DNA of 64,000 nucleotides from Novosphingobium sp. (GCF_027531025.1 NZ_JAPZQX010000003.1:536190-600189); one strand, 5' to 3'. Numbered from the stretch's first letter, positions 23,570 through 39,450 are shown. Notes: a model not told the origin generated them from the sequence alone. Made by a program: numbers and translations.

Positions 23570-23940
23570 TTGGTCGACCTGTCGCAATATCTGCCGATCC
23601 TGATTTTCCTCGGGATAGCGCTGGCCTTGTCCAGCCTGTTTGTGTTCCTGCCGATGGGGGTGGCCCGCCTGACCGGCGCGCATAACCCCAACGCGGAAAA
23701 GCTGAGCGAGTACGAATGCGGCTTCCCCGCGTTCGAGGACCCGCGCAGCCAGTTTGACGTGCGCTTCTATCTCGTGGCGATCCTGTTCATCATCTTCGAC
23801 CTGGAAGCCGCGTTCCTGTTCCCCTGGGCGGTCAGCCTCGATCTGACCGGTTGGCCGGGCTGGATCACGATGATGGTGTTCCTGGGTGAACTGGCGGTGG
23901 GCCTCGCCTATGCCTGGAAAATGGGGGCTTTGGATTGGGA

Positions 23941-23944
<4 letters not shown>
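23570..23944 (+). CDS. nuoA: NADH-quinone oxidoreductase subunit A
   Basis: [27 protein letters not shown] and GALDWE; TTG start. Confidence 0.96.
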
Positions 23945-24509
<565 letters not shown>

Positions 24510-24513
<4 letters not shown>

Positions 24514-25136
24514 GCGTGGTCCATTCCGCCCCCCGCTTCGCCAGCAACGATGGCGTGATCGAAGCCGTTTCGGCCACGCTGGGCGATCGCCTGGCCGCCG
24601 CGCACGAAGCTCATGGCGAAGTGGTGCTGACCGTTCGGCGCGATGCCATTGCCGATGCGCTGCAACTGCTGCGTGACGAGCACGAATACCAGCAGCTGAT
24701 GGAGATCGCCGGGGTCGATTACCCCAACCGGACCGAACGGTTCGAAGTGGTCTACATGCTGCTCTCGCTGACCCGCAATCACCGCGTGCTGGTGAAGGTC
24801 AATGCTGCCGAGAACACCCCGGTGCCGACCGTCACGCACCTCTGGCCGGTGGCTGGCTGGCTCGAGCGCGAAGTCTTCGACCTGTATGGCGTGATCTTCG
24901 AAGGCAATGCCGACCTGCGCCGGATCCTGACGGACTATGGCTTTGAAGGCCATCCGTTCCGCAAGGACTTCCCGCTGACCGGCTATGTCGAGCTGCGCTA
25001 TTCCGAAGAGGACAAGCGCGTGGTCTATGAACCGGTCAAGCTGGCCCAGGACCTGCGCCAGTTCGATTTCCAGAGCCCGTGGGAAGGCGCTGACTATGCG
25101 CTGCCCGGCGATGAAAAGGCAGGAGCAGCCCAGTGA
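24510..25136 (+). CDS. nuoC: NADH-quinone oxidoreductase subunit C
   Basis: [34 protein letters not shown]. Confidence 0.96.
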
Positions 25137-26344
25137 GCCTGCAACTTGAACACTCGCCGACCACCGGCGACGATGTCATCACCAATTACACGATCAACTT
25201 CGGCCCCCAGCACCCGGCCGCGCACGGCGTGCTGCGCATGGTGCTGGAACTGGACGGCGAAGTGATCGAACGTGTCGATCCGCACGTCGGCCTGCTGCAT
25301 CGCGGCACCGAAAAGCTGATCGAGCACAAGACCTATCTCCAGGCGCTGCCTTACTTTGACCGGCTCGACTATTGCTCGCCGCTGGGCATGGAGCATTCCT
25401 ATGTGCTGGCGGTCGAGAAGCTGCTGAACGTCGAGGTGCCGGAGCGCGCGAAGTATCTGCGCGTGCTGTTCGCCGAACTGACCCGCATCTGCAACCACAT
25501 GCTGAACCTCGGTTCGCACGTGATGGACGTGGGCGCGATGACGCCGAACCTGTGGATGTTCGAAGTGCGCGAGGACTGCCTCAACTTCTTCGAGCGCGCT
25601 TCGGGTGCGCGGATGCACTCGGCCTGGTTCCGTCCCGGCGGTGTCCACCAGGACGTGCCGGAAAAGCTGCTGGTCGATATCGGCACCTGGCTCGACACGC
25701 GCCTGCCCGAACTGTTCGAAGATGCGATGAGCCTGGTGGTCGACAACCGCATCTTCAAGCAGCGCAATGTCGATATTGCCACGGTCAGCAAGGATGATGC
25801 GATCAAGTGGGGCTTCTCCGGCCCGATGATCCGCGGTTCCGGCATTCCATGGGACATCCGCAAGGCCCAGCCTTACGACGTCTACGACCGGATGGAATTC
25901 GACGTGCCGGTTGGCACGCGCGGCGATTGCTATGACCGGTTCATGGTTCGCGTCGAGGAAGTGCGCCAGTCGGCCCGGATCATGAAGCAGTGCCTGCGCG
26001 ATATGCCTTCCGGCCCAATCGCCTCGGATGACCGCAAGGTTTCGCCGCCCAAGCGCGCCGAGATGAAGCAGTCGATGGAAGCGCTGATCCATCACTTCAA
26101 GCTTTACACCGAAGGCTTCCACGTGCCGGCCGGTGAGGTCTATGTCGCCACCGAAAGCCCCAAGGGTGAATTCGGTGTCTATCTGGTCAGCGATGGCAGC
26201 AACAAGCCCTACCGCTGCAAGATCCGCCCGACCGCCTTCTCGCACCTCCAGGCGATGGACTTCATGTGCAAGGGCCACATGCTGCCGGACGTCACCGCCA
26301 TCATCGGCGCGATCGACGTGGTGTTCGGGGAGTGTGACCGTTGA
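25133..26344 (+). CDS. nuoD: NADH-quinone oxidoreductase subunit D
   Basis: [28 protein letters not shown] and DVVFGECDR. Confidence 0.97.
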
Positions 26345-26526
26345 TCCTTCGCGAGCTGTTCATCGCGGTCCTGGCGTTCTCCGCCTTCGCTTCGGCGGTG
26401 GCGGCCTATCTGTTCGTGTTCCACCCGGCTACCGCCACGCTGAAGGAAGTGCTGAGCACGGCCTTTACCGGCATGGTCGGTGTCTTTGTCGGGCGCTGGC
26501 TGGAACGGAGGATGGCCCGTGGCTGA
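26341..26526 (+). CDS. Small two-TM hypothetical protein inside the nuo operon
   Basis: 61 codons with two hydrophobic helices. TTG start overlaps the nuoD stop; its 3' end carries GGAGGA for the next gene. Confidence 0.7.
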
Positions 26527-26854
26527 TCGCCTGACCATCGCTCAGCAGATGATCGCGCATTACAACGCGCAGGATGCCGATGCCTATGTCGCGCTGATGA
26601 CCGACGATGCCTGCGAAGCGGGCTATCGCGGGGCGGTCCTGCGCGAAGGCAAGGAAGGCGTGCGCGCCGGGCTGAAGGCGATGTTCGCCGAATTCCCCGA
26701 GAACCGCGCCGAAATCATCCAGGGCTGGCAGCTGGGCGATACCGCTGTGCTCTATGAAAAGGTCTGGCGTTCGGCTGCGGCCGAACCCTTTGAAGTCATG
26801 TCCATTTACTCGTTCGAGGGCGACAAGTGCTCTCGCATGGAGTTTGTCCGCTAA
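26519..26854 (+). CDS. SnoaL-like/NTF2 fold protein inside the nuo operon
   Basis: HYNAQDADAYVALMTDDA...GKEGVRA...GDTAV pattern. GTG 26519 follows GGAGGA; TAATG overlap with nuoE. Confidence 0.8.
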   Translation: MADRLTIAQQMIAHYNAQDADAYVALMTDDACEAGYRGAVLREGKEGVRAGLKAMFAEFPENRAEIIQGWQLGDTAVLYEKVWRSAAAEPFEVMSIYSFEGDKCSRMEFVR

Positions 26855-27522
26855 TGGCCGACCGGCATCTTGAACCCGATACCCCCGAACTGCGCGCGCG
26901 CTGGTCGGGCTTTGCCTGGACCAAGGAAAACGCGGCCAAGGCTGCGGAGTATGTCGCGCGTTACCCTGAAGGGCGCCAGCGCTCGGCGGTGATGCCGCTG
27001 CTCGACCTGGCCCAGCGCCAGGTTGGCGCCGAAACCAGCACGCAAGGCTGGCTGCCGCTGCCGGTGATGGAATATGTCGCCAAATACCTCGATATGCCGG
27101 TGATCCGCGTGGTCGAGGTGGCGACCTTCTACTTCATGTATAACCTGGTGCCGGTGGGCAAGTTCCACGTCCAGGTCTGCGGCACCACGCCGTGCATGCT
27201 GCGCGGCTCGGACGCGATCATGGCTGCCTGCAAGAAGCGCGGCATGGCGAAGGGCCACACCACCGAGGACGGTCTGTGGACCCTGACCGAGGTCGAATGC
27301 ATGGGCAACTGCGCCTCTGCCCCGATGGTCCAGATCAACGACGACAATTACGAAGACCTGACGCCCGAACGGCTCGACGCGGTGCTTGATGCGCTCGCCG
27401 CGGGCAAGGCGCCCAAGACCGGGACGCAGGAACCGGGCCGCCACACCGTTGAGCCCGTTGGCGGGCCGACCACTCTGAAAGAGATGGTCGAGGCCAACCA
27501 CGATTACCGGAAGGAGTGGTAA
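26854..27522 (+). CDS. nuoE: NADH-quinone oxidoreductase subunit E
   Basis: VCGTTPCMLRG and ECMGNCASAP [2Fe-2S] motifs. Start at ATG 26854. Confidence 0.96.
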   Translation: MADRHLEPDTPELRARWSGFAWTKENAAKAAEYVARYPEGRQRSAVMPLLDLAQRQVGAETSTQGWLPLPVMEYVAKYLDMPVIRVVEVATFYFMYNLVPVGKFHVQVCGTTPCMLRGSDAIMAACKKRGMAKGHTTEDGLWTLTEVECMGNCASAPMVQINDDNYEDLTPERLDAVLDALAAGKAPKTGTQEPGRHTVEPVGGPTTLKEMVEANHDYRKEW

Positions 27523-27525
27523 GCC

Positions 27526-28812
27526 ATGTCTTTGCAGGACAAGGACCGCATCTTCACCAATCTCTACGGCTATCAGCCGTGGAACCTCGATGCCGCCAAG
27601 AAGCGCGGTGACTGGGACAAGACCAGGAAGCTGCTTGAGCTTGGCCCCGACAAGATCATCGAGGAAATCAAGGCTTCAGGCCTGCGCGGGCGCGGGGGAG
27701 CGGGCTTCCCGACCGGCCTCAAGTGGTCGTTCATGCCCAAGGAATCGAAGGACGGCCGTCCCAGCTTCCTGGTGATCAACGCCGACGAATCCGAACCCGG
27801 TTCGTGCAAGGACCGCGAGATCATCCGTCACGATCCGCACAAGCTGATCGAGGGCGCGCTGGTGGCCGGCTTCGCGATGCGCGCGCGGGCGGCCTATATC
27901 TACATCCGCGGCGAATATATCCGCGAGGCCCAGGTGCTCGAGGCGGCGGTCAAGGAAGCCTATGACGCCGGGCTGATCGGCAAGAACGCCTGCAAGAGCG
28001 GCTACGATTTCGACGTCTACGTCCATCGCGGCGCCGGCGCCTATATCTGCGGTGAAGAAACCGCGATGATCGAAAGCCTGGAAGGCAAGAAGGGCCAGCC
28101 GCGCCTGAAGCCGCCGTTCCCGGCCGGCGCGGGCCTTTATGGCTGCCCGACCACGGTCAACAATGTCGAATCAATCGCGGTTGCCCCCACGATCCTGCGG
28201 CGCGGGGCGGGCTGGTTCAGCTCGTTCGGGCGGGACAACAACAAGGGCACCAAGCTGTTCCAGATCAGCGGGCACGTGAACAAGCCCTGCGTGGTCGAGG
28301 AAGCGATGAGCATCCCGTTCAGCGAGCTGATCGAGAAGCATTGCGGCGGCATCACCGGGGGCAAGGACAACCTGCTGGCGGTGATCCCGGGCGGCTCCTC
28401 GGTGCCGCTGGTTCCAGCCGAACAGATCTGGGACGCGCCTATGGACTTCGACGGTCTGCGCGAAGTCGGTTCGGGCCTTGGCACCGCCGCCGTCATCGTC
28501 ATGGACAAGTCGACCGACATAGTCCGCGCGATCAGCCGCCTGTCCTACTTCTACAAGCACGAGTCCTGCGGCCAGTGCACCCCTTGCCGCGAAGGCACGG
28601 GCTGGATGTGGCGCGTCATGGAACGCCTGCGCACCGGCGATGCCGACGTGGGCGAAATCGACATGCTGTGGGACGTGACCAAGCAGGTCGAAGGCCACAC
28701 CATCTGCGCACTGGGTGACGCCGCCGCCTGGCCGATCCAGGGCCTGATCCGCCACTTCCGCCCCGAACTGGAGCGCCGCATCGCCGAAAACGTGCGGGAG
28801 GCGGCCGAGTGA
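27526..28812 (+). CDS. nuoF: NADH-quinone oxidoreductase subunit F
   Basis: [30 protein letters not shown] and [12 protein letters not shown]. Confidence 0.97.
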
Positions 28813-29534
28813 AAGCCCTGACCCGCCTGGCTCCGCTGGCGGTGCTGGTGGCTGCTCCGGCTGTGGCCGAGGCGCCCAGTCCACAGCAGATCCGCACGTT
28901 CCTGGCCGAATATGGCACCTGCATCGCCAAGCGCGAGCCGGAACTGGCCCATCGCGCGGTGCTGGGCGAGGCGAGCTTCCATTACGACAGCCCCGAGGGC
29001 AAGCGCCTGCGCCAGCGCGAATGCATGGACGCGGCGCTGCTGCGCAATTCGAGCGATGGCTTTACCGGCCGCCTGCGGATGCGGCTTGACGACGATACCT
29101 ATCGCGGGGTGATCGCCGAGGCGTTGATCGCCAAGGGCGGCGTTGCCCTCGATCCGGCCAGGCTGCCCGCGATTGCGGCTCTCGATTACAATGAACCGCG
29201 CCCGCTGCGCACCACCGACCGGGACGGCAAGCCCATTCCGGAAGACCGGCTTGAGCGGCAGCGTGCTGCCATCGCCCGCCGGACCGAGGCGATTGCGCTC
29301 GGCCGTCTGGGTGAATGCACGGTGCGCACGGCCCCGGTCCCGGCCCGCACCGTCCTGGCTACACAGATCGACACCCCGGCCGAACTTCAAGCCTTGAATG
29401 CGCTTGGTCAGACCCTCGGCCAGTGCATCAAGGCGGGCGAGACCGTCTCGCTTGACCGGATCAGCGTGCGCGGCGCGCTGGCCACCGCCTATTACCGCCT
29501 TTCCCAGGCCAAGCCTTCCGGAGCGATCCAGTAA
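28809..29534 (+). CDS. Secreted hypothetical protein with an internal two-fold repeat, inside the nuo operon
   Basis: Signal peptide ending APAVA; two Cx33-35C...RGxxA units. GTGA overlap with nuoF and TAATG overlap with nuoG. Confidence 0.8.
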
Positions 29535-31543
29535 TGCCCAAGGTAACCGTCGACGGCGTGGAACTTGAGGTCCCGGCAGGGGCCACGGTCCTGCAGGCCT
29601 GCGAAATGGCCGGCAAGGAAATCCCGCGTTTCTGCTATCATGAGCGCCTGTCCATCGCCGGCAATTGCCGGATGTGCCTGGTCGAGGTGAAGCCCGGGCC
29701 GCCCAAGCCGCAGGCTTCGTGCGCGCTGCCTGCCGCCGAGGGCCAGGAAATCCGCACTGACAGCCCGATGGTCAAGAAGGCGCGCGAAGGGGTGATGGAG
29801 TTCCTCCTGATCAACCACCCGCTCGATTGCCCGATCTGCGACCAGGGCGGGGAATGCGACCTCCAGGACCAGTCGGTTGCCTATGGCCGCGGCGCCTCGC
29901 GCTATGACGAGAACAAGCGCGCCGTCACCGAAAAGTACATGGGTCCGCTGATCAAGACGGTGATGACCCGCTGCATCCACTGCACCCGCTGCGTGCGCTT
30001 CTCGGAAGAGATCGCCGGGGTGGACGAAATCGGCGCGCTTTATCGCGGCGAGCAGATGCAGATCACGACCTATCTGGAACAGGCCGCCAAGCACGAGCTT
30101 TCGGCCAATGTGATCGACCTTTGCCCGGTCGGCGCGCTCACCTCGCGGCCCTATGCCTTCGAGGCGCGGCCGTGGGAACTGAAGAAGACCCTGTCGATCG
30201 ACGTGTCGGACGCGGTCGGCTCGAACATCCGGCTCGACAGCCGTGGCCGCGAAGTGCTGCGCATCCTGCCGCGCATCAACGATGACGTGAACGAGGAATG
30301 GCTGTCCGACAAGGCGCGCTATCAGGTCGATGGCCTGACCCGCCGCCGCCTCGACCGGCCGTGGATCCGTGGGGCGGATGGCAAGCTTGCCGCCGCCACC
30401 TGGGAAGAAGCCTTCGCCGCCGTGGCCAAGGTCAACCCGGGCAAGTCGGTGGCCGTGGTTGCCGGTGACATGGTCGATTGCGAAACCATGTTCGCGGCCA
30501 AGGCGCTCGCAGGCGCGCTGGGCAGCAAGCTGCTTGAAGGCCGCCAGACCGGCCTCGACTATGACTGCTCGAACCTCGCGGCGGTGAACTTCAATTCGAC
30601 CATCGCCGGGATCGAAGAGGCCGATGCCGTGCTGATCGTGGGCAGCCATGTCCGCTGGGAAGCGCCGCTGGTGAACACCCGCATCCGCAAGGCGGTGAAG
30701 CGCGGTGCCAAGGTCTTTGTGGTCGGGGCGGAATGGGATGCGACCTATCCGGTCACCAACCTCGGCACTGACCTGGCCGTGCTGGACAAGCTGCCCAAGG
30801 ACGTTGCCGACGTGCTCAAGAAGGCGGCGCGTCCGGCGCTGATCCTGGGCGGCGCAGGCCTGGGCAAGGGCGCGCTGGGTGCCTGCCTGGCGCTAGCCGA
30901 TAAGTACAAGCTGGTCCGTGATGGCTGGAACGGCTTCAACGTGCTGCACATGGCGGCGGCGCGGATGGGCGGCTTGATGCTGGGCTATGCCCAGAAGGGC
31001 GGCATTGCCGACCTGGTCAAGGCCAAGCCCAAGCTGCTGCTTTCGCTCGGCGCGGACGAAGTGGACTACACCAAGTTTGCTGACAGCATCGTCGTTTACA
31101 TTGGCCACCATGGCGACAAGGGCGCTCACGCGGCCGACATCATCCTGCCGGCCGCTGCCTTCAGCGAAAAGCCGGGCACTTACGTCAACACCGAAGGCCG
31201 GGTGCAGTTTGCCGAAAAGGCTGTCTTCGCGCCGGGTGACGCGCGCGAGGACTGGACGATCCTGCGCGCGCTGGCCGATGCCCTGAGCGTCACTGTCGGC
31301 TTCGACAGCTTCGACGAGCTGCGCGCCGCGATGATCAAGGCCGCTCCGGCGCTCGGCAGCGAGGGACTGGCCGATTACGGTGCGCTGCCCAAGGCCGAGA
31401 AGGCCAAGGCCAGCGGCACGATCGAGGCTTACCCGATCAAGGACTTCTACCTCACCAACGCGATCGCCCGCGCCAGCGAGACCATGCAGCGCTGCTCGGC
31501 CGAACTACTCCACGGTGAGAGCTTCGCGGAGGCCGCGGAATGA
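29534..31543 (+). CDS. nuoG: NADH-quinone oxidoreductase subunit G
   Basis: [31 protein letters not shown] and CIHCTRC. Confidence 0.97.
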
Positions 31544-32583
31544 CCGCTTTCTTCCAATCGCTCGGCATGACCTACGAATGGGCGTGGTTCACCGCGACCA
31601 TTGCCGGGATCCTGCTGATTGCCCTGCCGCTGATGCTGGCCGTGGCGATGATCATCTATGTCGATCGCAAGGTCTGGGCGGCCATGGCGCTGCGCCGCGG
31701 CCCGAACGTGGTCGGCCCCTGGGGCCTGCTCCAGTCCTTTGCGGACGGCCTCAAGGTCTTCTTGCAGGAAACCATCGTGCCTTCGGCGGCCAACAAGGGC
31801 CTGTTCCTGATCGCGCCGATCATCACCTTCACCGTCGCGCTGCTGGCCTGGGCGGTGATCCCGTTCAATTCGGGCGCAGTGCTGGCCGATCTCAACGTTG
31901 GTCTGCTCTATGTCCTCGCGATCTCCTCGCTGGGGGTCTACGGCGTGGTCATCGCGGGCTGGGCCTCGAACTCGAAGTACCCGTTCTTCTCGGCCATGCG
32001 CGCCTCGGCGCAGATGATTTCCTATGAAGTCTCGATCGGCTTCATCCTGATCTGCGTGGTGCTGTGGGCGGGCAGCTTCAACCTTGGCGAGATTGTCGAG
32101 GCGCAGAAGTCGCACGTCGGCATCATCAACGGCTTCGTCGCCAACCCGCTGCTATTCCCGATGTGGGTGATGTTCCTGATCTCCGGCATGGCCGAAACCG
32201 CCCGCGCGCCGTTCGACCTCACCGAGGCCGAAAGCGAGCTGGTCGCCGGTTATCAGACCGAATATTCGTCGATGAGCTTCGCGCTCTACTGGCTGGGTGA
32301 GTACGCCAACGTCCTCTTGATGTGCGCGCTCAATGCCGTGCTGTTCTTCGGCGGTTACCTGCCGCCGCTCGACATTCCGGTGCTCTACCTGGTGCCGGGC
32401 TGGATCTGGCTCTTCGCCAAAATCTTCTTCTTCTTCTTCATCTTCTCGTGGGTCAAGGCCACGGTCCCGCGCTATCGCTATGACCAGCTGATGCGTCTGG
32501 GATGGAAGGTGTTCCTGCCGGTTTCGCTGGGCTTCGTGGTCCTGGTGAGCGGCTATCTGATGCTGACGAGGTACGGGGTATGA
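31540..32583 (+). CDS. nuoH: NADH-quinone oxidoreductase subunit H
   Basis: [31 protein letters not shown] and PRYRYDQLM. Confidence 0.97.
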
Positions 32584-33008
32584 TACGTTTACTTACCCTT
32601 GCTGCATTCCTCGCCACATCAACAGCCGTTGCTGCCGAGCCAACTAATCGTTGGTGGTCGGGCGGCGGTATGGGCGTGAGCGAGTATGGTTGGTCCGGAT
32701 CGGATCGAACTACGATCTATATGACTTGCGAAGGTGATGATGAACTGGGGCTTCGGGTTTCAATCCGGGGTGTCGATCCAAAGCCGAAGTCTCAGGTCAT
32801 TTTCGAAGTAAACGGTCAAAGTATTGTCTTTTTCGTAAAGTCCGATGGCGACATTGAGATGCAAAGCAGAGTTTCGATGAACAATCTCTACTTTCTTTTC
32901 GAAGAGCTCCGCAGCGGTCGTCAGGTCACTGTGAATTTTGATGGCCTCTCAAAGACACTTCCACTTACTGGAAGTGCCAAGGGGCTAGGCAAGGGACTTT
33001 GTAAATGA
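32580..33008 (+). CDS. Low-GC secreted hypothetical protein inside the nuo operon
   Basis: 142 aa from ATG 32580, signal peptide ending AVAA, two Cys. Hand count 210/420 GC over 32581-33000. ATGA overlaps at both ends. Confidence 0.8.
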
Positions 33009-33490
33009 GTGTCGCTCAGCTTATCAAGAGCTTCACCCTCTGGGAATTCGTGAAGGCGCACTGGCTTACCCTGAAGTACTTCTTCAGGCCCAAGGCGACC
33101 ATCAACTATCCCTTCGAGAAGAACCCGCTGAGCCCGCGGTTCCGCGGCGAACATGCGCTGCGCCGCTATCCCAACGGGGAAGAACGCTGCATCGCCTGCA
33201 AGCTGTGCGAAGCGGTCTGCCCGGCGCAGGCGATCACGATCGAGGCCGAGCCGCGTGACGATGGGAGCCGCCGCACCACGCGCTACGACATCGACATGAC
33301 CAAGTGCATCTACTGCGGCTTCTGTCAGGAAGCCTGCCCGGTCGATGCGATCGTCGAAGGGCCGAACTTCGAATACGCGACCGAAACGCGCGAGGAACTG
33401 CTTTACGACAAGGCAAAGCTGCTGGCCAACGGGGACAAGTGGGAGCGGGCGATTGCCGCGAACCTTGAAGCCGATGCGCCGTATCGGTAG
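33005..33490 (+). CDS. nuoI: NADH-quinone oxidoreductase subunit I
   Basis: [12 protein letters not shown] and [12 protein letters not shown] ferredoxin motifs. Confidence 0.97.
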
Positions 33491-33502
33491 GGGCCCGCCG
33501 CA

Positions 33503-34120
33503 ATGATCCAGGTGCTAACCTTCTACCTGTTCGCAGGTATCATGATCGCGGCGGGGGCCTTCACGATCCTCGCCCGCAACCCCGTGCATTCGGTGCTGTG
33601 GCTGATCGTCGCCTTCTTCAACGCGGCGGGCCTGATGGTCCTCGCCGGGGCCGAATTCATCGCCATGTTGCTGGTGATCGTTTACGTCGGCGCAGTCGCG
33701 GTGCTGTTCCTGTTCGTCGTGATGATGCTCGACATCGATTTTGCCGAACTGCGCGCCGGTTTCATCAAGAACTTCCCGCTGGGCCTGGCGGTTGCCATCG
33801 TCCTGCTGGCCGAGATCGTTCTCGGCATGGGGGCCTACCAGGCCGGCGCGCTGCAACTCGGTACACCCGATGGTTCGGGCGCGACACCGGCTGGCGCATC
33901 GAACATCGAGGCGATCGGCGCCCTGCTCTACAGCAAGTACCTGTTCCTGTTCGAAGCGGCCGGGATCATCCTGCTGGTCGCCATGGTCGGCGCGATCGTC
34001 CTGACTCACCGCCAGCGCGGCGGCGTGCGCGGCCAGAACATCGCACAGCAGATTGCCCGCCGCCCTGAAGAGGCCGTGGTCAATGCGCAGCCGGAAGTGG
34101 GCAAGGGGGTTTCGCTGTGA
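33503..34120 (+). CDS. nuoJ: NADH-quinone oxidoreductase subunit J
   Basis: [41 protein letters not shown]. Confidence 0.96.
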
Positions 34121-34422
34121 TCGGCGTTGAACACTATGTAGTCGTCAGCTCGATCCTGTTCGTGCTGGGCGTGCTGGGGATCTTCCTCAACCGCAAGAAC
34201 GTGATCGTGATCCTGATGGCGATCGAACTGATCCTGCTGTCGGTGAACCTCAACCTGGTGGCCTTCAGCAGCTTTCTTGGCGATCTGACCGGCCAGGTCT
34301 TTGCCATGTTCGTCCTGACTGTGGCCGCCGGTGAAGCGGCGATCGGCCTCGCGATCCTGGTGATCTACTTCCGCCGTCGCGGCACCATTGCCGTCGACGA
34401 TGTCAACCGGATGAAGGGGTAA
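34117..34422 (+). CDS. nuoK: NADH-quinone oxidoreductase subunit K
   Basis: [27 protein letters not shown]. Confidence 0.96.
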
Positions 34423-34428
34423 GCGTCC

Positions 34429-36450
34429 GTGGATCCGATCCTCTTCATCGTCTTCCTGCCCTTGCTGGCCGCGATCGTCGCGGGCCTCGGCAACCGGATG
34501 CTGGGCAATTTCGCCGCCAAGCTGGTGACGACGGGCGCGCTGTTCGCCTCGTGCCTGCTGTCCTGGCCGATCTTCCTGGCCTTCATGGACGGCACGGCCG
34601 AAGCGCATGTCGTGCCGGTGCTGCAGTGGGTCCAGTCGGGCTCGCTGACCTTCGACTGGGCGCTGCGGGTCGATACCCTGACCGCGGTCATGCTGGTGGT
34701 GATCACCACCGTCTCGGCGCTCGTGCACCTCTATTCCTGGGGCTATATGGACGAGGACCCGGATCAGCCGCGGTTCTTCGCCTATCTCAGCCTCTTCACC
34801 TTCGCCATGCTGATGCTGGTGACGGCCGATAACCTGGTCCAGATGTTCTTTGGTTGGGAAGGGGTGGGTCTCGCCTCGTACCTGCTGATCGGCTTCTGGT
34901 TCAAGAAGCCCTCGGCCAGCGCCGCCGCGATCAAGGCCTTCGTGGTCAACCGCGTGGGCGACCTTGGTTTCATGCTGGGGATCTTCGGCACCTTCCTGGT
35001 GTTCAACACGGTCTCTATCCCCGAAATCCTCGCCGCCGCACCCGGCATGGAAGGTTCGACCATCGGCTTCCTCGGCTATCGCTGGGATACGATGACGATC
35101 CTGTGCATCCTGCTGTTCATCGGCGCGATGGGCAAGTCGGCCCAGCTGGGCCTGCACACCTGGCTGCCTGACGCGATGGAAGGCCCGACCCCGGTTTCGG
35201 CGCTGATCCACGCGGCGACCATGGTCACCGCCGGCGTCTTCATGGTCTGCCGCCTTTCGCCGATGTTCGAAGCCAGCCCGATCGCGCTCGACATCGTCAC
35301 CTATGTCGGTGCCGCCACCTGCTTCTTCGCCGCCACGGTCGGCCTGACGCAGTGGGACATCAAGCGGGTGATCGCCTATTCGACCTGCTCGCAGCTGGGC
35401 TACATGTTCTTCGCCGCCGGCGTCGGGGCCTATGGCGCGGCGATGTTCCACCTGTTCACTCACGCCTTCTTCAAGGCCCTGCTGTTCCTGGGCGCGGGCT
35501 CGGTGATCCACGCGATGCACCACGAGCAGGACATGCGCTATTACGGCGGCCTGCGTAAGCACATCCCGCTGACCTTCTGGGCGATGATGGCCGGAACCCT
35601 GGCGATCACCGGGGTGGGGTTCTACTGGCTCCACGCCGGGTTCGCGGGCTTCCATTCGAAGGACGCAATCCTCGAAGTGGCCTTCGCCAGCGGCAAGGAA
35701 TCCGGCATGTTCGCCTTCTGGGTGGGCGTGACCGCCGCGCTGATGACCAGCTTCTATTCGTGGCGCCTGATCTTCCTGACCTTCTTCGGCAAGGCCCGCT
35801 GGGCCGGGTCCGAGCACATCCAGCACGCCGTGCACGATGACCATCACGGGCATGACGACCATGGTCACGGCCATGCGCATGGCGATGATGGCACCGCCGG
35901 CTACCATCCGCACGAAAGTCCGCTGGCGATGCTGGTGCCGCTTGGCGTGCTGACCCTTGGGGCGGTCTTCGCCGGATGGGTCTTCACCGGCTCGTTCCTG
36001 TCCAGCGCCGATTTCTGGGGCGGCTCGATCTTCTACAACGAGCACCTGATGCATGCGATGCACGAAGTGCCGCTGTGGGTGAAGCTGAGTGCCACTGCAG
36101 TGATGCTGGTCGGCCTGTTTGGTGCCTGGTATGCATACATTCGCAACCCAGGCTTCCCGGCCAAGGTCGTCGCGCAGATCGATGTCCTCTACCGCTTCGT
36201 CTACAACAAGTGGTACTTCGACGAGCTCTACAACTTCCTGTTCGTCCGCCCGGCCTTCTGGATCGGCGACAAGTTCTGGAAGCTCGGCGATATCGGGATC
36301 ATCGACCGCTTCGGCCCGAACGGTGCCGCCTGGACCGTGCTTCAGGGCACCCGCCTCGCGCAGAAGGTGCAGTCGGGTTACCTCTATTCCTATGCTCTCG
36401 TGATGCTGCTGGGCCTGACCGCGGCGATCACCTGGATGATGGTGCGCTAA
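34429..36450 (+). CDS. nuoL: NADH-quinone oxidoreductase subunit L
   Basis: [39 protein letters not shown] and [10 protein letters not shown]. Confidence 0.97.
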
Positions 36451-36451
36451 G

Positions 36452-37987
36452 ATGGCCGATTTCCCCATTCTCTCGGTCATGATGCTGGTGCCGCTGCTGG
36501 CAGCGGTGGCCTGTCTGCTGGTCGAGGCCAAGGCCGCGCGGCAGATCGCCTTGGTGGCAACGCTGATCGATCTCGCGCTGGGCGTGCTGCTCTGGGTGAA
36601 CTACGACATCGGCGGGGCGCAGTGGCAGTTCCATGAGAACGTGCCGCTGTTCGCCGGGTTCTCGTGGGCGCTGGGCATCGATGGCATCGCCCTGATGCTG
36701 ATCATGCTGTCGGTGTTCCTGATGCCGATCTGCATCCTAGCCAGCGCGTCGATCGAAAAGCGCGTGGGCGAGTACATGGCGGCCTTCCTGTTGATGGAAA
36801 CGCTGATGATCGGCGTGTTTGCGGCGCAGGACATCTTCCTGTTCTACATCATGTTCGAGGCCGGCCTGATCCCGATGTACCTGATCATCGGGATCTGGGG
36901 CGGGGCTGACCGGATCTACGCCAGCTACAAGTTCTTCCTCTACACGCTGATCGGCTCGGTGCTGATGCTGATCGCCATGCTTTGGATGGTGAACGAGGCC
37001 GGGACGACCGACATCCCGACGCTGATGGAGTACAACTTCGCGCCGGAAGTGCAGACCTGGCTGTGGCTGGCCTTCTTCGCGAGCTTTGCCGTGAAGATGC
37101 CGATGTGGCCGGTTCACACCTGGCTGCCAGATGCCCACGTGCAGGCGCCCACCGCCGGGTCGGTGATCCTGGCGGGCGTCCTGCTGAAGATGGGCGGCTA
37201 TGGCTTCATCCGCTTCTCGCTGCCGATGTTCCCGGAAGCTTCGGCCCAGTTCGCCTGGCTGGTCTTTGCCCTGTCGATGGTCGCGGTGATCTACACCTCG
37301 CTGGTCGCGCTGGTGCAGAACGACATGAAGAAGCTGATCGCCTATTCCTCGGTCGCGCACATGGCGATCGTCACGATCGGCCTGTTCGCCTTCAACCCGC
37401 AGGGTCTCGAAGGCGCGATGGTAGTGATGCTCAGCCACGGCCTGGTTTCGGGCGCGCTGTTCCTGTGCGTGGGTGTGATTTACGACCGGCTCCACACCCG
37501 TGAGATCGACCGGTACGGCGGCCTGTCGATCAACATGCCTTATTATGCGCTGTTCTTCATGCTCTTCACCATGGCCTCCATTGGCCTGCCGGGGACCAGC
37601 GGCTTCGTGGGTGAATTCCTGAGCCTTGCCGGTATCTATCAGGTATCGAGCTGGGTGGCGCTGGTCTGCACGACCGGTATCATCCTGGGTGCAGCCTACA
37701 TGCTCTATCTCTATCGCCGCGTCTGCTTCGGCGAGCAGAAGAATGCCGATGCCGCCGCCATGCCCGATCTCAACCGCCGTGAGTGGTGGCTGATGGCGCC
37801 AATCGCCGCGGTCGTGCTGTGGATGGGGGTCTATCCGGAAAGCTTCCTGGCGCCGATGCGCGCCGATATCGCGGTACTCGATGCCCGGATCGCGCGGGCC
37901 AAGCCCGAAAGCGATGCCCAGCTGACTGCCGGCAAGCCCAAGCCCGCCAACGCCACCGAACATACCGCGCACGGGGAGGCGCACTGA
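36452..37987 (+). CDS. nuoM: NADH-quinone oxidoreductase subunit M
   Basis: FEAGLIPMY, HTWLPDAHVQAPT, LLKMGGYG and PGTSGFVGEF. Confidence 0.97.
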   Translation: MADFPILSVMMLVPLLAAVACLLVEAKAARQIALVATLIDLALGVLLWVNYDIGGAQWQFHENVPLFAGFSWALGIDGIALMLIMLSVFLMPICILASASIEKRVGEYMAAFLLMETLMIGVFAAQDIFLFYIMFEAGLIPMYLIIGIWGGADRIYASYKFFLYTLIGSVLMLIAMLWMVNEAGTTDIPTLMEYNFAPEVQTWLWLAFFASFAVKMPMWPVHTWLPDAHVQAPTAGSVILAGVLLKMGGYGFIRFSLPMFPEASAQFAWLVFALSMVAVIYTSLVALVQNDMKKLIAYSSVAHMAIVTIGLFAFNPQGLEGAMVVMLSHGLVSGALFLCVGVIYDRLHTREIDRYGGLSINMPYYALFFMLFTMASIGLPGTSGFVGEFLSLAGIYQVSSWVALVCTTGIILGAAYMLYLYRRVCFGEQKNADAAAMPDLNRREWWLMAPIAAVVLWMGVYPESFLAPMRADIAVLDARIARAKPESDAQLTAGKPKPANATEHTAHGEAH

Positions 37988-39450
37988 TGGATTTCGTCCA
38001 GTCTTTCCGCCTCGCCGCTCCCGAGATCCTGTTCAGCCTTTCCGGGCTGATCCTGCTCCTGGCTTCGGCCTGGACCCGCTCCGATCGTGGGGCTCGTGTC
38101 ATCACCTGGCTGACCGTTGTCGTGCTGGTCATCGGCGGCGCAATGATCGCACCCGCTCTGGCCAACGGCGCTTCGGGCCCCGATACGCTGGCCTTTTCGG
38201 CGCTGTTCACCGCCTCGGCCTTCGCGGCCTTTGCCAAACTGCTGATCATCGCTGCGGCAGCGGCTTCGCTGGTGGTCGCGCCCGCATACTTCCAGCGGCT
38301 TGGGGCCTATCGCAACGAGTATGCCGTGCTGGTGTTGTTCGCGGTGCTGGGCATGTGCCTGATGGTCTCGTCGACCAACCTACTGACGCTCTACATCGGG
38401 CTCGAACTCAATTCGCTCGCAGCCTATGTGCTCGCCGCGTTCCTGCGCAATGATGACCGTTCGGCGGAAGCCGGGCTCAAGTACTTCGTGCTGGGCTCGC
38501 TGGCCTCGGGCATCCTGCTGTTCGGGATCAGCCTGACTTACGGCTTCGCCGGAACGATCGGTTACGACGGGATCGCTGCTGCGCTCACTGGCAAGATCTC
38601 GACCGGGGCGGTGTTCGGGCTGGTCTTCGTCTTTGCCGGTCTGGCCTTTAAGATCAGCGCCGTGCCGTTCCACATGTGGACGCCCGACGTTTACGAAGGT
38701 TCGCCCACGCCGGTCACCACCTTCTTTGCCTCGGCACCAAAGGTGGCGGCCCTCGCGCTGACGGTGATCGTCGCGATCGAGGCCTTCGGCAACCAGATTG
38801 CCGCCTGGCAGCCGATCGTGATCTTCGCCGCGCTCGCGTCGATCGTGATCGGTGCCCTGGGTGCCATCGGGCAGACCAATCTCAAGCGCCTGCTGGCCTA
38901 TTCGTCGATCAACAACGTCGGCTTCCTGCTGATCGGTCTGGCCGCCGCCACGCCCCAGGGCGTTGCCGGGATGCTGGTATACCTCGCGATCTATACCGCG
39001 ATGACCATTGGCGGCTTTGTGGCCGTGCTCATGCTCAAGGATGCCGATGGCAATCCGGTTGAGAGCCTGGCCGACATCGCCGGCCTCTCGCGCCACCGCA
39101 AGGTGCTGGCCGCATGCCTCGCCATGATCATGTTCAGCCTGGCCGGCATCCCGCCGCTGTTCGGGTTCTGGGGCAAGTTCGTGGTGTTCCAGGCTGCGGT
39201 GGAAGCCGGGAATATCTGGCTGGCCGCCATCGGGATCGCCGCCAGCGTGATCGGGGCCTTCTATTACCTCAAGGTCGTCAAGGTGATGTACTTCGACGAA
39301 CCGGCGATGAAGGCGGTGGGGCAGAGCGACTGGATGCACCAGGCCCTGCTCGGGCTGTGCGCAGTGGCGATCTCGCCGCTTGGCTACTTGCTGACCAAGC
39401 CCCTTGGCGAAATGGCGGCAACGGCGGCGGGCGTGCTGTTCATCCCCTGA
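37987..39450 (+). CDS. nuoN: NADH-quinone oxidoreductase subunit N
   Basis: EAGLKYF, FKISAVPFHMWTPDVYEG, SLAGIPPLFGFWGK. Start at ATG 37987 (TGATG overlap). Confidence 0.96.
   Translation: MDFVQSFRLAAPEILFSLSGLILLLASAWTRSDRGARVITWLTVVVLVIGGAMIAPALANGASGPDTLAFSALFTASAFAAFAKLLIIAAAAASLVVAPAYFQRLGAYRNEYAVLVLFAVLGMCLMVSSTNLLTLYIGLELNSLAAYVLAAFLRNDDRSAEAGLKYFVLGSLASGILLFGISLTYGFAGTIGYDGIAAALTGKISTGAVFGLVFVFAGLAFKISAVPFHMWTPDVYEGSPTPVTTFFASAPKVAALALTVIVAIEAFGNQIAAWQPIVIFAALASIVIGALGAIGQTNLKRLLAYSSINNVGFLLIGLAAATPQGVAGMLVYLAIYTAMTIGGFVAVLMLKDADGNPVESLADIAGLSRHRKVLAACLAMIMFSLAGIPPLFGFWGKFVVFQAAVEAGNIWLAAIGIAASVIGAFYYLKVVKVMYFDEPAMKAVGQSDWMHQALLGLCAVAISPLGYLLTKPLGEMAATAAGVLFIP

What the first reader, a model, noticed from the sequence alone, without database searches (positions are those of the whole stretch)
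25133..33490. Complex I operon carrying four translationally coupled passenger genes at three junctions
Four non-nuo ORFs sit inside an otherwise canonical nuoA-N operon: two between nuoD and nuoE, one between nuoF and nuoG, and one between nuoH and nuoI. Seen directly: every junction overlaps (TTGA, GTGGCTGA, TAATG, GTGA, TAATG, ATGA, ATGA). Each passenger block also ends with a purine-rich SD-like tract for the next gene (GGAGGA, GGAG, AAGGGA). Known: extra ORFs occur in the Paracoccus and Rhodobacter nqo/nuo clusters. Inference: these junctions are cassette slots, and their cargo is made in step with complex I. Two cargo proteins are exported and Cys-containing, which is odd for assembly factors of the cytoplasmic NADH module. 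This could be an undescribed system that uses a highly expressed operon to express envelope proteins, or a set of accessory factors.
Basis: partly seen in the sequence, partly recalled or inferred. Interest (0 to 1): 0.7.

Follow-up and report, generated by a model that had tools for sequence, protein, structure and literature searches.

The report
Passenger genes inside complex I operon
A freshwater Novosphingobium-like bacterium carries four real extra genes wedged with overlapping start/stop codons between its respiratory complex I genes; three are old residents of this bacterial family and one is a recently inserted mobile-type periplasmic protein gene at a junction that swaps cargo unusually fast.

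Summary
nuoA-N lies on the + strand (23570-39450). Four extra ORFs sit at D|E (P1, P2), F|G (P3) and H|I (P4), and all seven overlaps read as described.

All four look like genes. P1-P3 have dN/dS of 0.05-0.14 against a ~95%-identical relative. P4 belongs to a conserved family.

P1 (small membrane peptide), P2 (SnoaL fold) and P3 (exported, four invariant Cys, all-alpha, no known fold) are confined to Sphingomonadaceae. P2 and P3 were not found in the other alphaproteobacterial families sampled. Each keeps mainly to its own junction.

P4 is different:
- It is a low-GC YfjT-family (PF27224) periplasmic protein.
- It was inserted as an exact 425-nt ORF that duplicates ATGA.
- The closest relative lacks it, and filled and empty forms coexist in metagenomes.
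- Its relatives lie either in this same slot or in restriction/phage-type islands.

Across 166 related operons the H|I slot is filled in about a fifth. The 35 occupants form 26 sequence-unrelated groups, yet nearly all share a signal peptide and an N-to-C cysteine pair. Four are fused to NuoH.

"Cassette slots" is therefore partly supported. A functional link to complex I remains unproven. Interspersed ORFs in alphaproteobacterial nuo clusters are known; this slot behaviour appears undescribed.

The parts
23570..26344 (+). nuoA (23570-23944), nuoB (23935-24513), nuoC (24510-25136), nuoD (25133-26344)
   Evidence: NCBIfam hits to NuoA-D; junctions -10, -4, -4
26341..26526 (+). P1: 61-aa small membrane peptide (one strong and one weak hydrophobic segment), TTG start overlapping the nuoD stop (TTGA)
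   Evidence: dN/dS 0.05 vs L089; homologues in the D|E slot of other Sphingomonadaceae; no Pfam/NCBIfam family
26519..26854 (+). P2: 111-aa SnoaL_2/NTF2-fold cytoplasmic protein, GTG start overlapping the P1 stop (GTGGCTGA), stop overlapping the nuoE start (TAATG)
   Evidence: PF12680 E 1.7e-13, 51.5 bits against cut-off 27; dN/dS 0.05; in the D|E slot of 44 of 173 related loci; phylogenetically clustered
26854..28812 (+). nuoE (26854-27522), nuoF (27526-28812)
   Evidence: NCBIfam
28809..29534 (+). P3: 241-aa exported all-alpha protein with two repeat units and four invariant Cys (C38, C72, C170, C206); GTGA overlap with nuoF, TAATG with nuoG
   Evidence: AF2 pLDDT 90.2, no PDB fold match; family in 88/201 family genomes, 1-4 tandem copies, 93/109 locatable hits in the F|G slot; dN/dS 0.14; a 151-nt metatranscriptome contig lies inside it
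29534..32583 (+). nuoG (29534-31543), nuoH (31540-32583)
   Evidence: NCBIfam; NuoH hydropathy is consistent with 8 TM helices and a periplasmic C-terminus (inference)
32580..33008 (+). P4: 142-aa exported YfjT-family (PF27224) protein with two conserved Cys (C50, C141), GC 0.50 against about 0.65 around it; ATGA overlaps at both ends
32584..33008 (+). The exact 425-nt insertion relative to the empty allele (ATGA repeated on both sides)
   Evidence: alignment with L089; joint 32579>33005 skipping 425 nt in metagenome contigs that also hold the filled form; empty-site loose end in a river metatranscriptome
33005..39450 (+). nuoI (33005-33490), nuoJ (33503-34120), nuoK (34117-34422), nuoL (34429-36450), nuoM (36452-37987), nuoN (about 38011-39450)
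   Evidence: NCBIfam for I and J; tblastn self-map and Pfam labels of the ~95%-identical operon L089

Best explanation
This is the 'porous' complex I operon typical of Sphingomonadaceae. The start/stop-overlap junctions between nuo genes tolerate whole ORFs, provided the insert recreates the overlap and an SD-like tract so that the downstream nuo gene is still translated.

The window holds two kinds of occupant.

(1) Old family-specific residents that evolve under purifying selection at host GC and keep to their junction. These are the P1 membrane peptide and the P2 SnoaL-fold protein at nuoD|nuoE, and P3, a periplasmic four-Cys helical protein, at nuoF|nuoG. I infer they are accessory proteins made in step with complex I. 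P1 may be a small membrane partner, P2 a ligand-binding or assembly helper, and P3 a periplasmic factor. None of these roles has been shown.

(2) A recent mobile-pool cargo. P4 is a low-GC YfjT-family periplasmic protein that entered as a precise 425-nt ORF at the nuoH|nuoI ATGA. It is not needed for complex I, because a sister lineage whose concatenated NuoD/F/G/H/I proteins are 98% identical, and co-occurring strains, lack it.

The nuoH|nuoI junction behaves as a replaceable slot in this family. About one operon in five carries a different, mostly orphan, low-GC exported protein of 125-176 aa (one of 257 aa) with an N-to-C cysteine pair. In four genomes that domain is fused to the periplasmic C-terminus of NuoH.

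Gain, loss and replacement most likely proceed by homologous recombination through the conserved nuoH and nuoI flanks with alleles from relatives. Selection then removes any insert that breaks coupling. This last step is inferred.
For: Anatomy and overlaps.

Genes are under constraint: dN/dS; conserved families.

Family restriction: P3 in 2/251 class genomes but 88/201 family genomes; P2 in 2/251.

Junction fidelity of P3: 93/109 hits lie just downstream of nuoF.

Census: in 179 family loci, gaps of at least 120 nt occur at D|E 135/173, E|F 123/176, F|G 110/176 and H|I 38/166. In 60 other alphaproteobacterial families the figures are 3/60, 6/60, 8/58 and 3/56.

P4 as a precise, polymorphic indel.

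P4 family and contexts: PF27224. Relatives lie in the H|I slot (L081, L082, L255, L256) or beside MmeI, GmrSD, PDDEXK or HNH genes (L083, L257, L258, L254). There is a phage 'putative adhesin' fold match at E 3.8e-8, and E. coli yfjT lies in cryptic prophage CP4-57.

H|I turnover: 26 clusters among 35 occupants; 27 changes against 27.9 shuffled; occupant identity 23% against a shuffled background of 22% at 90-95% flank identity; cargo GC 0.538 against 0.616, lower in 33/35.

Shared architecture: 22/28 separate occupants and 4/4 fused domains, against 2/106 signal-peptide-like small ORFs of the same genome (Fisher p = 1e-17).

Fusions to NuoH.

Overlaps at cargo ends: -4 upstream in 29/31; -4 or -1 downstream in 24/31.

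No internal promoter- or terminator-like signal above chance. RNA contigs span P4|nuoI.
Against: - No protein-level evidence exists that any of the four products is made or binds complex I.
- RNA support is thin: metatranscriptome contigs at low depth, DNA carry-over possible, and no coverage over P1/P2.
- No donor flank was identified for P4. The immediate flanks remain closest to the empty-site relative, so the recombination route is unproven.
- Independent entries of unrelated cargo at exactly the same 4-nt site are hard to explain by selection alone and may point to an unknown mechanism.
- The tree is a FastTree of nuo proteins with one genome per species. Traits that turn over faster than that sampling look random whatever the mechanism.
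- P3's fold and sequence give no functional clue.
Confidence: 0.6

Rival explanations
1. The H|I occupants, possibly including P4, are lineage-specific periplasmic supernumerary parts of complex I. They would dock on, or be tethered to, the periplasmic C-terminus of NuoH. In function they would resemble the disulfide-containing intermembrane-space subunits of mitochondrial complex I.
For: In four genomes the ~130-aa two-Cys domain is fused in frame to NuoH without a signal peptide. It is conserved between different genera (L004, L033, L145 form one cluster; L013 is separate). Shorter Cys-pair tails occur on NuoH in other loci. NuoH topology places the C-terminus in the periplasm, matching the signal peptides of the unfused versions (established ND1/NuoH topology, from memory). 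Cargo is strictly coupled to nuoH and nuoI.
Against: The slot is empty in about 80% of relatives and in the window's sister lineage. Occupants are sequence-unrelated orphans. P4 relatives also live in restriction/phage-type islands far from nuo. A structural subunit would not be expected to be replaced this freely.
Confidence: 0.2
2. P4 and the other H|I cargo are moron-like selfish or adaptive envelope genes, for example phage or toxin exclusion factors or immunity proteins. They would merely exploit a constitutively expressed essential operon as a safe expression site and have no role in respiration.
For: Low GC in 33/35. Relatives lie next to MmeI, GmrSD, PDDEXK and HNH genes and on a conjugative plasmid. 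The fold matches a phage protein. The E. coli namesake lies in a cryptic prophage. Presence/absence varies within metagenomes. Replacement is rapid and host-independent.
Against: No PADLOC or PHROG family matches. This reading does not explain the stable NuoH fusions, or why cargo of one architecture is so strongly preferred at this one junction. No partner toxin or effector gene is adjacent.
Confidence: 0.3
3. The four ORFs are non-functional spacer frames or annotation artefacts that stay open by chance in GC-rich DNA.
For: High-GC DNA gives many spurious long ORFs on both strands. Three of the four have no Pfam or NCBIfam family in the local libraries.
Against: dN/dS is 0.05-0.14. Cys and motif columns are invariant across 34-40 homologues. 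AF2 models are confident at pLDDT 88-90. P2 has a significant Pfam hit. P4 is low-GC and yet open over 142 codons, with conserved relatives.
Confidence: 0.02

Closest known systems
[quoted passage not shown]
   Same: Same-strand non-nuo ORFs lie between canonical complex I genes of an alphaproteobacterium, mainly in the nuoD-to-nuoJ half. Their function is unknown.
   Different: The occupants here are different proteins. P2 and P3 were not found outside Sphingomonadaceae in about 250 alphaproteobacterial genomes. The strain-level indel, the H|I replacement behaviour and the NuoH fusions are not, to my knowledge, described for those clusters.
YfjT (b2637) of E. coli cryptic prophage CP4-57, Pfam PF27224
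   Same: Size of about 145-155 aa, signal peptide, an N-terminal W..G.G.G..EY...C motif, and association with mobile DNA. No known function was found in the literature searched.
   Different: Direct profile-sequence similarity to E. coli YfjT is weak and partial (E 6.5e-4, 45 columns). P4 sits inside a core respiratory operon rather than a prophage.
Disulfide-containing intermembrane-space supernumerary subunits of mitochondrial complex I (NDUFA8, NDUFS5, NDUFB7, NDUFB10; established knowledge)
   Same: Small Cys-paired proteins on the P-side of the membrane arm. Here the candidates are exported two-Cys domains encoded next to, or fused to, the ND1 homologue.
   Different: There is no sequence or fold relationship: these are not CHCH twin-Cx9C proteins. 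Association with the enzyme is unproven, and the slot is empty in most relatives.
Variable gene slots flanked by conserved core genes and exchanged by flanking homology (e.g. capsule or O-antigen loci), and phage morons
   Same: Unrelated low-GC cargo alternates at one fixed position between conserved genes. Presence/absence varies within populations, and expression is borrowed from the surrounding unit.
   Different: The cargo is a single ORF with no own promoter or terminator. It is inserted to the nucleotide at a start/stop overlap inside an essential operon.

Membership tests
14-subunit proton-pumping complex I operon (nuoA-N) | All 14 subunit genes are present in canonical order on one strand | tested here: met
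   NCBIfam equivalog or subfamily hits for A-J. K-N come from the tblastn self-map and from the Pfam labels of the ~95%-identical operon L089.
Alphaproteobacterial nuo/nqo clusters with interspersed URFs (Paracoccus, Rhodobacter type) | Same-strand non-nuo ORFs between nuo genes | tested here: met
   Four ORFs at D|E, F|G and H|I. The trait is frequent in 179 family loci and rare in 60 other families.
Alphaproteobacterial nuo/nqo clusters with interspersed URFs (Paracoccus, Rhodobacter type) | Occupants are homologous to the Paracoccus or Rhodobacter URF products | tested here: inconclusive
   The P2 and P3 profiles hit only Sphingomonadaceae among about 250 genomes of the class.
SnoaL_2 / NTF2-like superfamily (PF12680), for P2 | Score above the Pfam gathering threshold over the full domain | tested here: met
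   51.5 bits against cut-off 27, residues 9-106 matching profile positions 2-101 of 102
YfjT family (PF27224), for P4 | Match to the Pfam model | tested here: met
   The precomputed PF27224 label applies to P4's own cluster and to 36 of its 37 listed relatives. The model is absent from the local Pfam copy.
YfjT family (PF27224), for P4 | Detectable similarity to E. coli YfjT itself | tested here: inconclusive
   hhalign of the P4 family against YfjT gives E 6.5e-4, probability 27%, over 45 N-terminal columns with a shared motif.
Integron-type or other site-specific gene cassettes | A conserved recombination site at cassette ends and an associated recombinase | tested here: not met
   The 35 H|I cargo ends share only RTGA overlaps and SD-like purines, with no common motif. 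The insert is ORF-only. No recombinase gene lies in the operon or among its immediate neighbours as labelled in L089.
Complex I supernumerary subunit or assembly factor | Co-purification with the enzyme, or a defect in its assembly | not testable with these tools
   Only indirect evidence is available: in-frame NuoH fusions in 4 genomes and coupling to nuo genes.
Known anti-phage defence or phage protein families | Match to PADLOC or PHROG models | tested here: not met
   There are no hits for P1-P4 or for four other H|I occupants.

The most novel reading that the evidence does not exclude
In Sphingomonadaceae the nuoH|nuoI start/stop overlap may be a dedicated landing site. The cargo would be a hyperdiverse, horizontally exchanged pool of exported domains of about 120 residues clamped by one N-to-C disulfide. 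These domains would work at the periplasmic face of complex I, tethered to or docked on the NuoH C-terminus. That would make them bacterial, replaceable counterparts of the mitochondrial intermembrane-space accessory subunits, or a fast-evolving shield or decoy at that surface.
Probability: 0.2. Interest if true: 0.8.

Novelty: new variant of a known kind. Interest (0 to 1): 0.55.

Why it matters
Complex I of alphaproteobacteria is the closest bacterial model of the mitochondrial enzyme. The interspersed ORFs of its operons have stayed unexplained for thirty years.

This family offers a natural experiment. Some genes are junction-faithful residents under purifying selection (P1-P3), which makes them good candidates for unrecognised accessory or assembly factors. 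One junction replaces its cargo within species, and occasional fusions there to the ND1 homologue point to a physical site of action.

The case also shows how a gene can enter an essential, translationally coupled operon without polar damage, by recreating the 4-nt overlap and an SD-like tract. That bears on operon evolution and on engineering insertions into coupled operons.

Tried and rejected
- Fold searches of confident AF2 models against the PDB gave nothing significant for P3 or P4. Only a phage 'putative adhesin' matched P4 in BFVD.
- Pfam and NCBIfam gave no family for P1, P3 or P4. PHROGs and PADLOC gave none for any occupant.
- I tried to unite the H|I occupants into one family, and every route failed: an HMM of the P4 family finds no other occupant; hhalign of 30 occupants against the P4 family finds nothing; a 15-sequence profile retrieves only 12 proteins, mostly its own seeds, from 1.84 billion representatives; one occupant has just two relatives among 5.8 billion proteins. 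I therefore rejected 'one hyperdivergent vertically inherited gene'. The flank-versus-occupant identity comparison points the same way.
- I looked for a donor of P4's flanks among all fetched loci and found none.
- I searched for the local Pfam model PF27224, but it is not in the library.
RNA coverage over P1/P2 was nil.
- My first gap table hid in-frame NuoH extensions, because upstream ORFs were extended to the next stop. It was redone from homology ends.
- Many C|D 'gaps' proved to be low-complexity NuoC C-terminal extensions in other genera, not genes.
Full report
**1. The observation**

The + strand of the window carries nuoA-N from 23570 to about 39450. NCBIfam names subunits A-J directly. 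K-N follow from the Pfam labels of an operon about 95% identical at the nucleotide level (L089).

Four extra same-strand ORFs sit inside it:
- P1, 26341-26526, 61 aa.
- P2, 26519-26854, 111 aa.
- P3, 28809-29534, 241 aa.
- P4, 32580-33008, 142 aa.

So are the purine tracts ahead of P2, nuoE, nuoG and nuoI.

Four-base overlaps are also the norm between the nuo genes themselves. The notable point is that the inserts reproduce the operon's coupling style. No promoter-like site and no excess of terminator-like sites occurs between 23000 and 40500.

**2. They are genes**

Against L089, dN/dS is 0.05 for P1, 0.05 for P2 and 0.14 for P3. The nuo genes give 0.00-0.08.

P2 is a SnoaL_2/NTF2-fold protein (PF12680, 51.5 bits).

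P3 has a signal-peptide-like start and four invariant cysteines in two repeat units (C38/C72 and C170/C206) across 40 homologues. It folds confidently as an all-alpha protein (pLDDT 90) with no PDB counterpart. All database relatives are 'hypothetical'.

P4 has a signal-peptide-like start and two conserved cysteines, with 37 relatives at 56-72% identity. It folds as a beta-rich domain with one long helix (pLDDT 88).

P1 has one strong and one weak hydrophobic segment.

**3. Comparative census**

I fetched 80 Sphingomonadales loci around nuoF, 100 further operons from unnamed species genomes of the same GTDB family, and three metagenome loci. This gave 179 non-redundant operons.

| Junction | Gap of at least 120 nt, this family | Other alphaproteobacterial families, one genome each |
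|---|---|---|
| D\|E | 135/173 | 3/60 |
| E\|F | 123/176 | 6/60 |
| F\|G | 110/176 | 8/58 |
| G\|H | 37/168 | not compared here |
| H\|I | 38/166 | 3/56 |
| I\|J | 34/165 | not compared here |

The J-K-L-M-N half stays tight. A few other families show the multi-slot pattern that the literature reports for Rhodobacter and Paracoccus (PMC4758237; the older primary papers are cited from memory). The porous operon is therefore a lineage trait, strongly enriched in this family.

Some short gaps are repeat-element-like sequences that recur in several junctions. Most C|D 'gaps' are low-complexity NuoC tails.

**4. Residents: P1, P2, P3**

The P3 family occurs in 88 of 201 family genomes but in only 2 of 251 genomes sampled across the class. 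Of its locatable hits, 93 of 109 lie immediately downstream of nuoF, in one to four tandem copies. Its GC equals the host's.

P2 occupies D|E in 44 loci. It is likewise absent outside the family. It is phylogenetically clustered, needing 19 changes against 38.6 for shuffled labels, and its identity tracks host identity (rho 0.41; 83% identity between close hosts).

P1-type peptides occur in D|E in variable order with P2: D-P1-P2-E here and in L009, but D-P2-P1-E in L064 and L065.

P3 evolves fast. Its central part is 71-75% identical at the nucleotide level where the flanks are about 95%. Its similarity is poorly correlated with the host, which fits paralogue sorting and rapid change.

**5. 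P4 and the nuoH|nuoI slot**

P4 is low in GC, 0.50 against about 0.65 around it.

L089 is the nearest relative: 98% identity in the concatenated NuoD/F/G/H/I proteins and the same P1-P2-P3 set. There, nuoH overlaps nuoI directly. The window differs by exactly 425 nt, with ATGA on both sides.

In three metagenomes, contigs of the filled form co-occur with contigs that join nuoH directly to nuoI. In X6 and X7 the joint is 32579>33005, with 4 shared letters. In X9 the joints are 32583>33017 and 32583>33024. A river metatranscriptome contig ends in the empty-site sequence. Three lake metatranscriptome contigs span the P4|nuoI junction with 0-2 mismatches.

P4 and its relatives carry the Pfam label PF27224 (YfjT). 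The E. coli namesake lies in cryptic prophage CP4-57 and shares an N-terminal motif, though only weakly.

Relatives with known context fall into two groups:
- In the same nuoH|nuoI slot: L081, L082, L255, L256.
- Beside MmeI-type restriction, GmrSD, PDDEXK or HNH genes: L083, L257, L258, L254.

One distant relative is on a conjugative plasmid. The fold matches a Serratia phage protein (E 3.8e-8).

**6. The slot as a whole**

Thirty-five occupants of at least 100 aa were found.

Junction and composition:
- 29 of 31 separate genes overlap nuoH by 4 nt, and 24 of 31 overlap nuoI by 4 or 1 nt.
- Their GC is 0.538 against 0.616 for the locus, lower in 33 of 35.

Sequence diversity:
- They fall into 26 BLAST clusters.
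- The P4 family HMM and a profile-profile test do not link P4 to the others.
- A 15-member profile retrieves essentially only its seeds from 1.84 billion proteins.
- One occupant has two relatives among 5.8 billion proteins.

Distribution:
- Presence is no more clustered on the nuo tree than shuffled labels (27 changes against 27.9).
- Occupants of hosts with 90-95% identical NuoH+NuoI are 23% identical, equal to the shuffled background. The most similar occupant pairs sit in more distant hosts.

This is replacement, not vertical divergence.

Yet 22 of 28 separate occupants and all four fused domains share one architecture: a signal peptide (or a NuoH tether), one Cys 18-60 residues in, and one Cys within 30 residues of the end. 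Only 2 of 106 comparable ORFs of the window's genome have it (p = 1e-17). P4 has it too.

In L004, L013, L033 and L145 the domain is fused in frame to NuoH with no signal peptide. NuoH hydropathy and charge distribution place its C-terminus in the periplasm (in line with established ND1 topology). The fusion and the signal peptides therefore tell the same topological story.

**7. Interpretation**

Shown:
- The ORFs are constrained genes.
- P1-P3 are family-specific residents.
- P4 is a recent, precise, polymorphic insertion of a mobile-pool gene.
- The H|I junction exchanges cargo.

Inferred:
- Translation by coupling.
- Exchange through the conserved flanks. The flanks next to P4 are slightly more diverged, but no donor was found.
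- Any role in complex I.

The fusions argue that at least some H|I cargo acts at NuoH. The emptiness of most sites, the orphan sequences and the restriction/phage-type contexts of P4 relatives argue for dispensable envelope passengers. I cannot decide between these readings with sequence alone, and I give them 0.2 and 0.3 respectively within the overall picture.

**8. Novelty**

Interspersed ORFs in alphaproteobacterial nuo clusters are long known. Earlier notes of this scan report passenger genes in nuo operons of other phyla (these are leads only).

I found no description of the following:
- The Sphingomonadaceae-wide census.
- The junction-faithful four-Cys P3 family.
- The strain-level ORF-exact indel.
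- The architecture-restricted but sequence-unrelated cargo of nuoH|nuoI, with NuoH fusions (literature searches).

I class the finding as a new variant of a known kind.

Noticed in passing
H|I cargo 3' ends in L003, L006, L010, L014, L037, L061, L063, L067, L070, L109, L153, L154, L156, L162, L173: Fifteen of 35 otherwise unrelated H|I occupants end in glutamine (CAA or CAG immediately before the TGA/ATGA overlap). This is far more than expected from the NNA/NNG codon constraint alone. It is unexplained.
   Followed up: partly
E|F junction of related loci (53 of 176); absent in the window (27522-27526): A 48-aa membrane-peptide family, and several other 56-66-aa hydrophobic peptides, occupy nuoE|nuoF in many relatives. 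They are phylogenetically clustered (28 changes against 41.4 shuffled).
   Followed up: partly
G368:C1:417397-420026, G428, G444: Up to four tandem paralogues of the P3 family fill the nuoF|nuoG slot in some genomes. A few paralogues lie elsewhere in the genome.
   Followed up: partly
L081 4435-4590, L082 900-1097: In two other carriers of a P4-type gene, an additional 51-aa or 65-aa ORF lies between it and nuoI.
   Followed up: no
clusters 17, 18, 21, 25, 26 (various junctions of related loci): Short 45-54-codon frames that recur in B|C, D|E, E|F, F|G, G|H, H|I, I|J, J|K and K|L junctions of different genomes look like translations of a dispersed repeat (MITE- or REP-like). This suggests the junctions also accept non-coding insertions.
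   Followed up: no
nuoC C-terminus in 108 related loci; the window's nuoC (24510-25136) lacks it: Most relatives have an Ala/Pro/Lys/Asp-rich low-complexity C-terminal extension of NuoC of about 80 residues. A 182-aa exported protein family occupies C|D in 20 loci.
   Followed up: no
L109 9575-10542: One genome carries two different two-Cys occupants in tandem in the H|I slot.
   Followed up: no
cluster 4 and cluster 10: P1-like peptides, and a 76-aa coiled-coil-like protein, appear in more than one junction (D|E, E|F, F|G, G|H and others) in different genomes. For P1-like peptides the clustering may partly reflect hydrophobic composition.
   Followed up: no
window 29083-29383 (middle of P3): Nucleotide identity to L089 drops to 71-75% in the centre of P3, while its ends and the neighbouring nuo genes are 94-100% identical. 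This could be localised rapid evolution or a recombination patch.
   Followed up: partly
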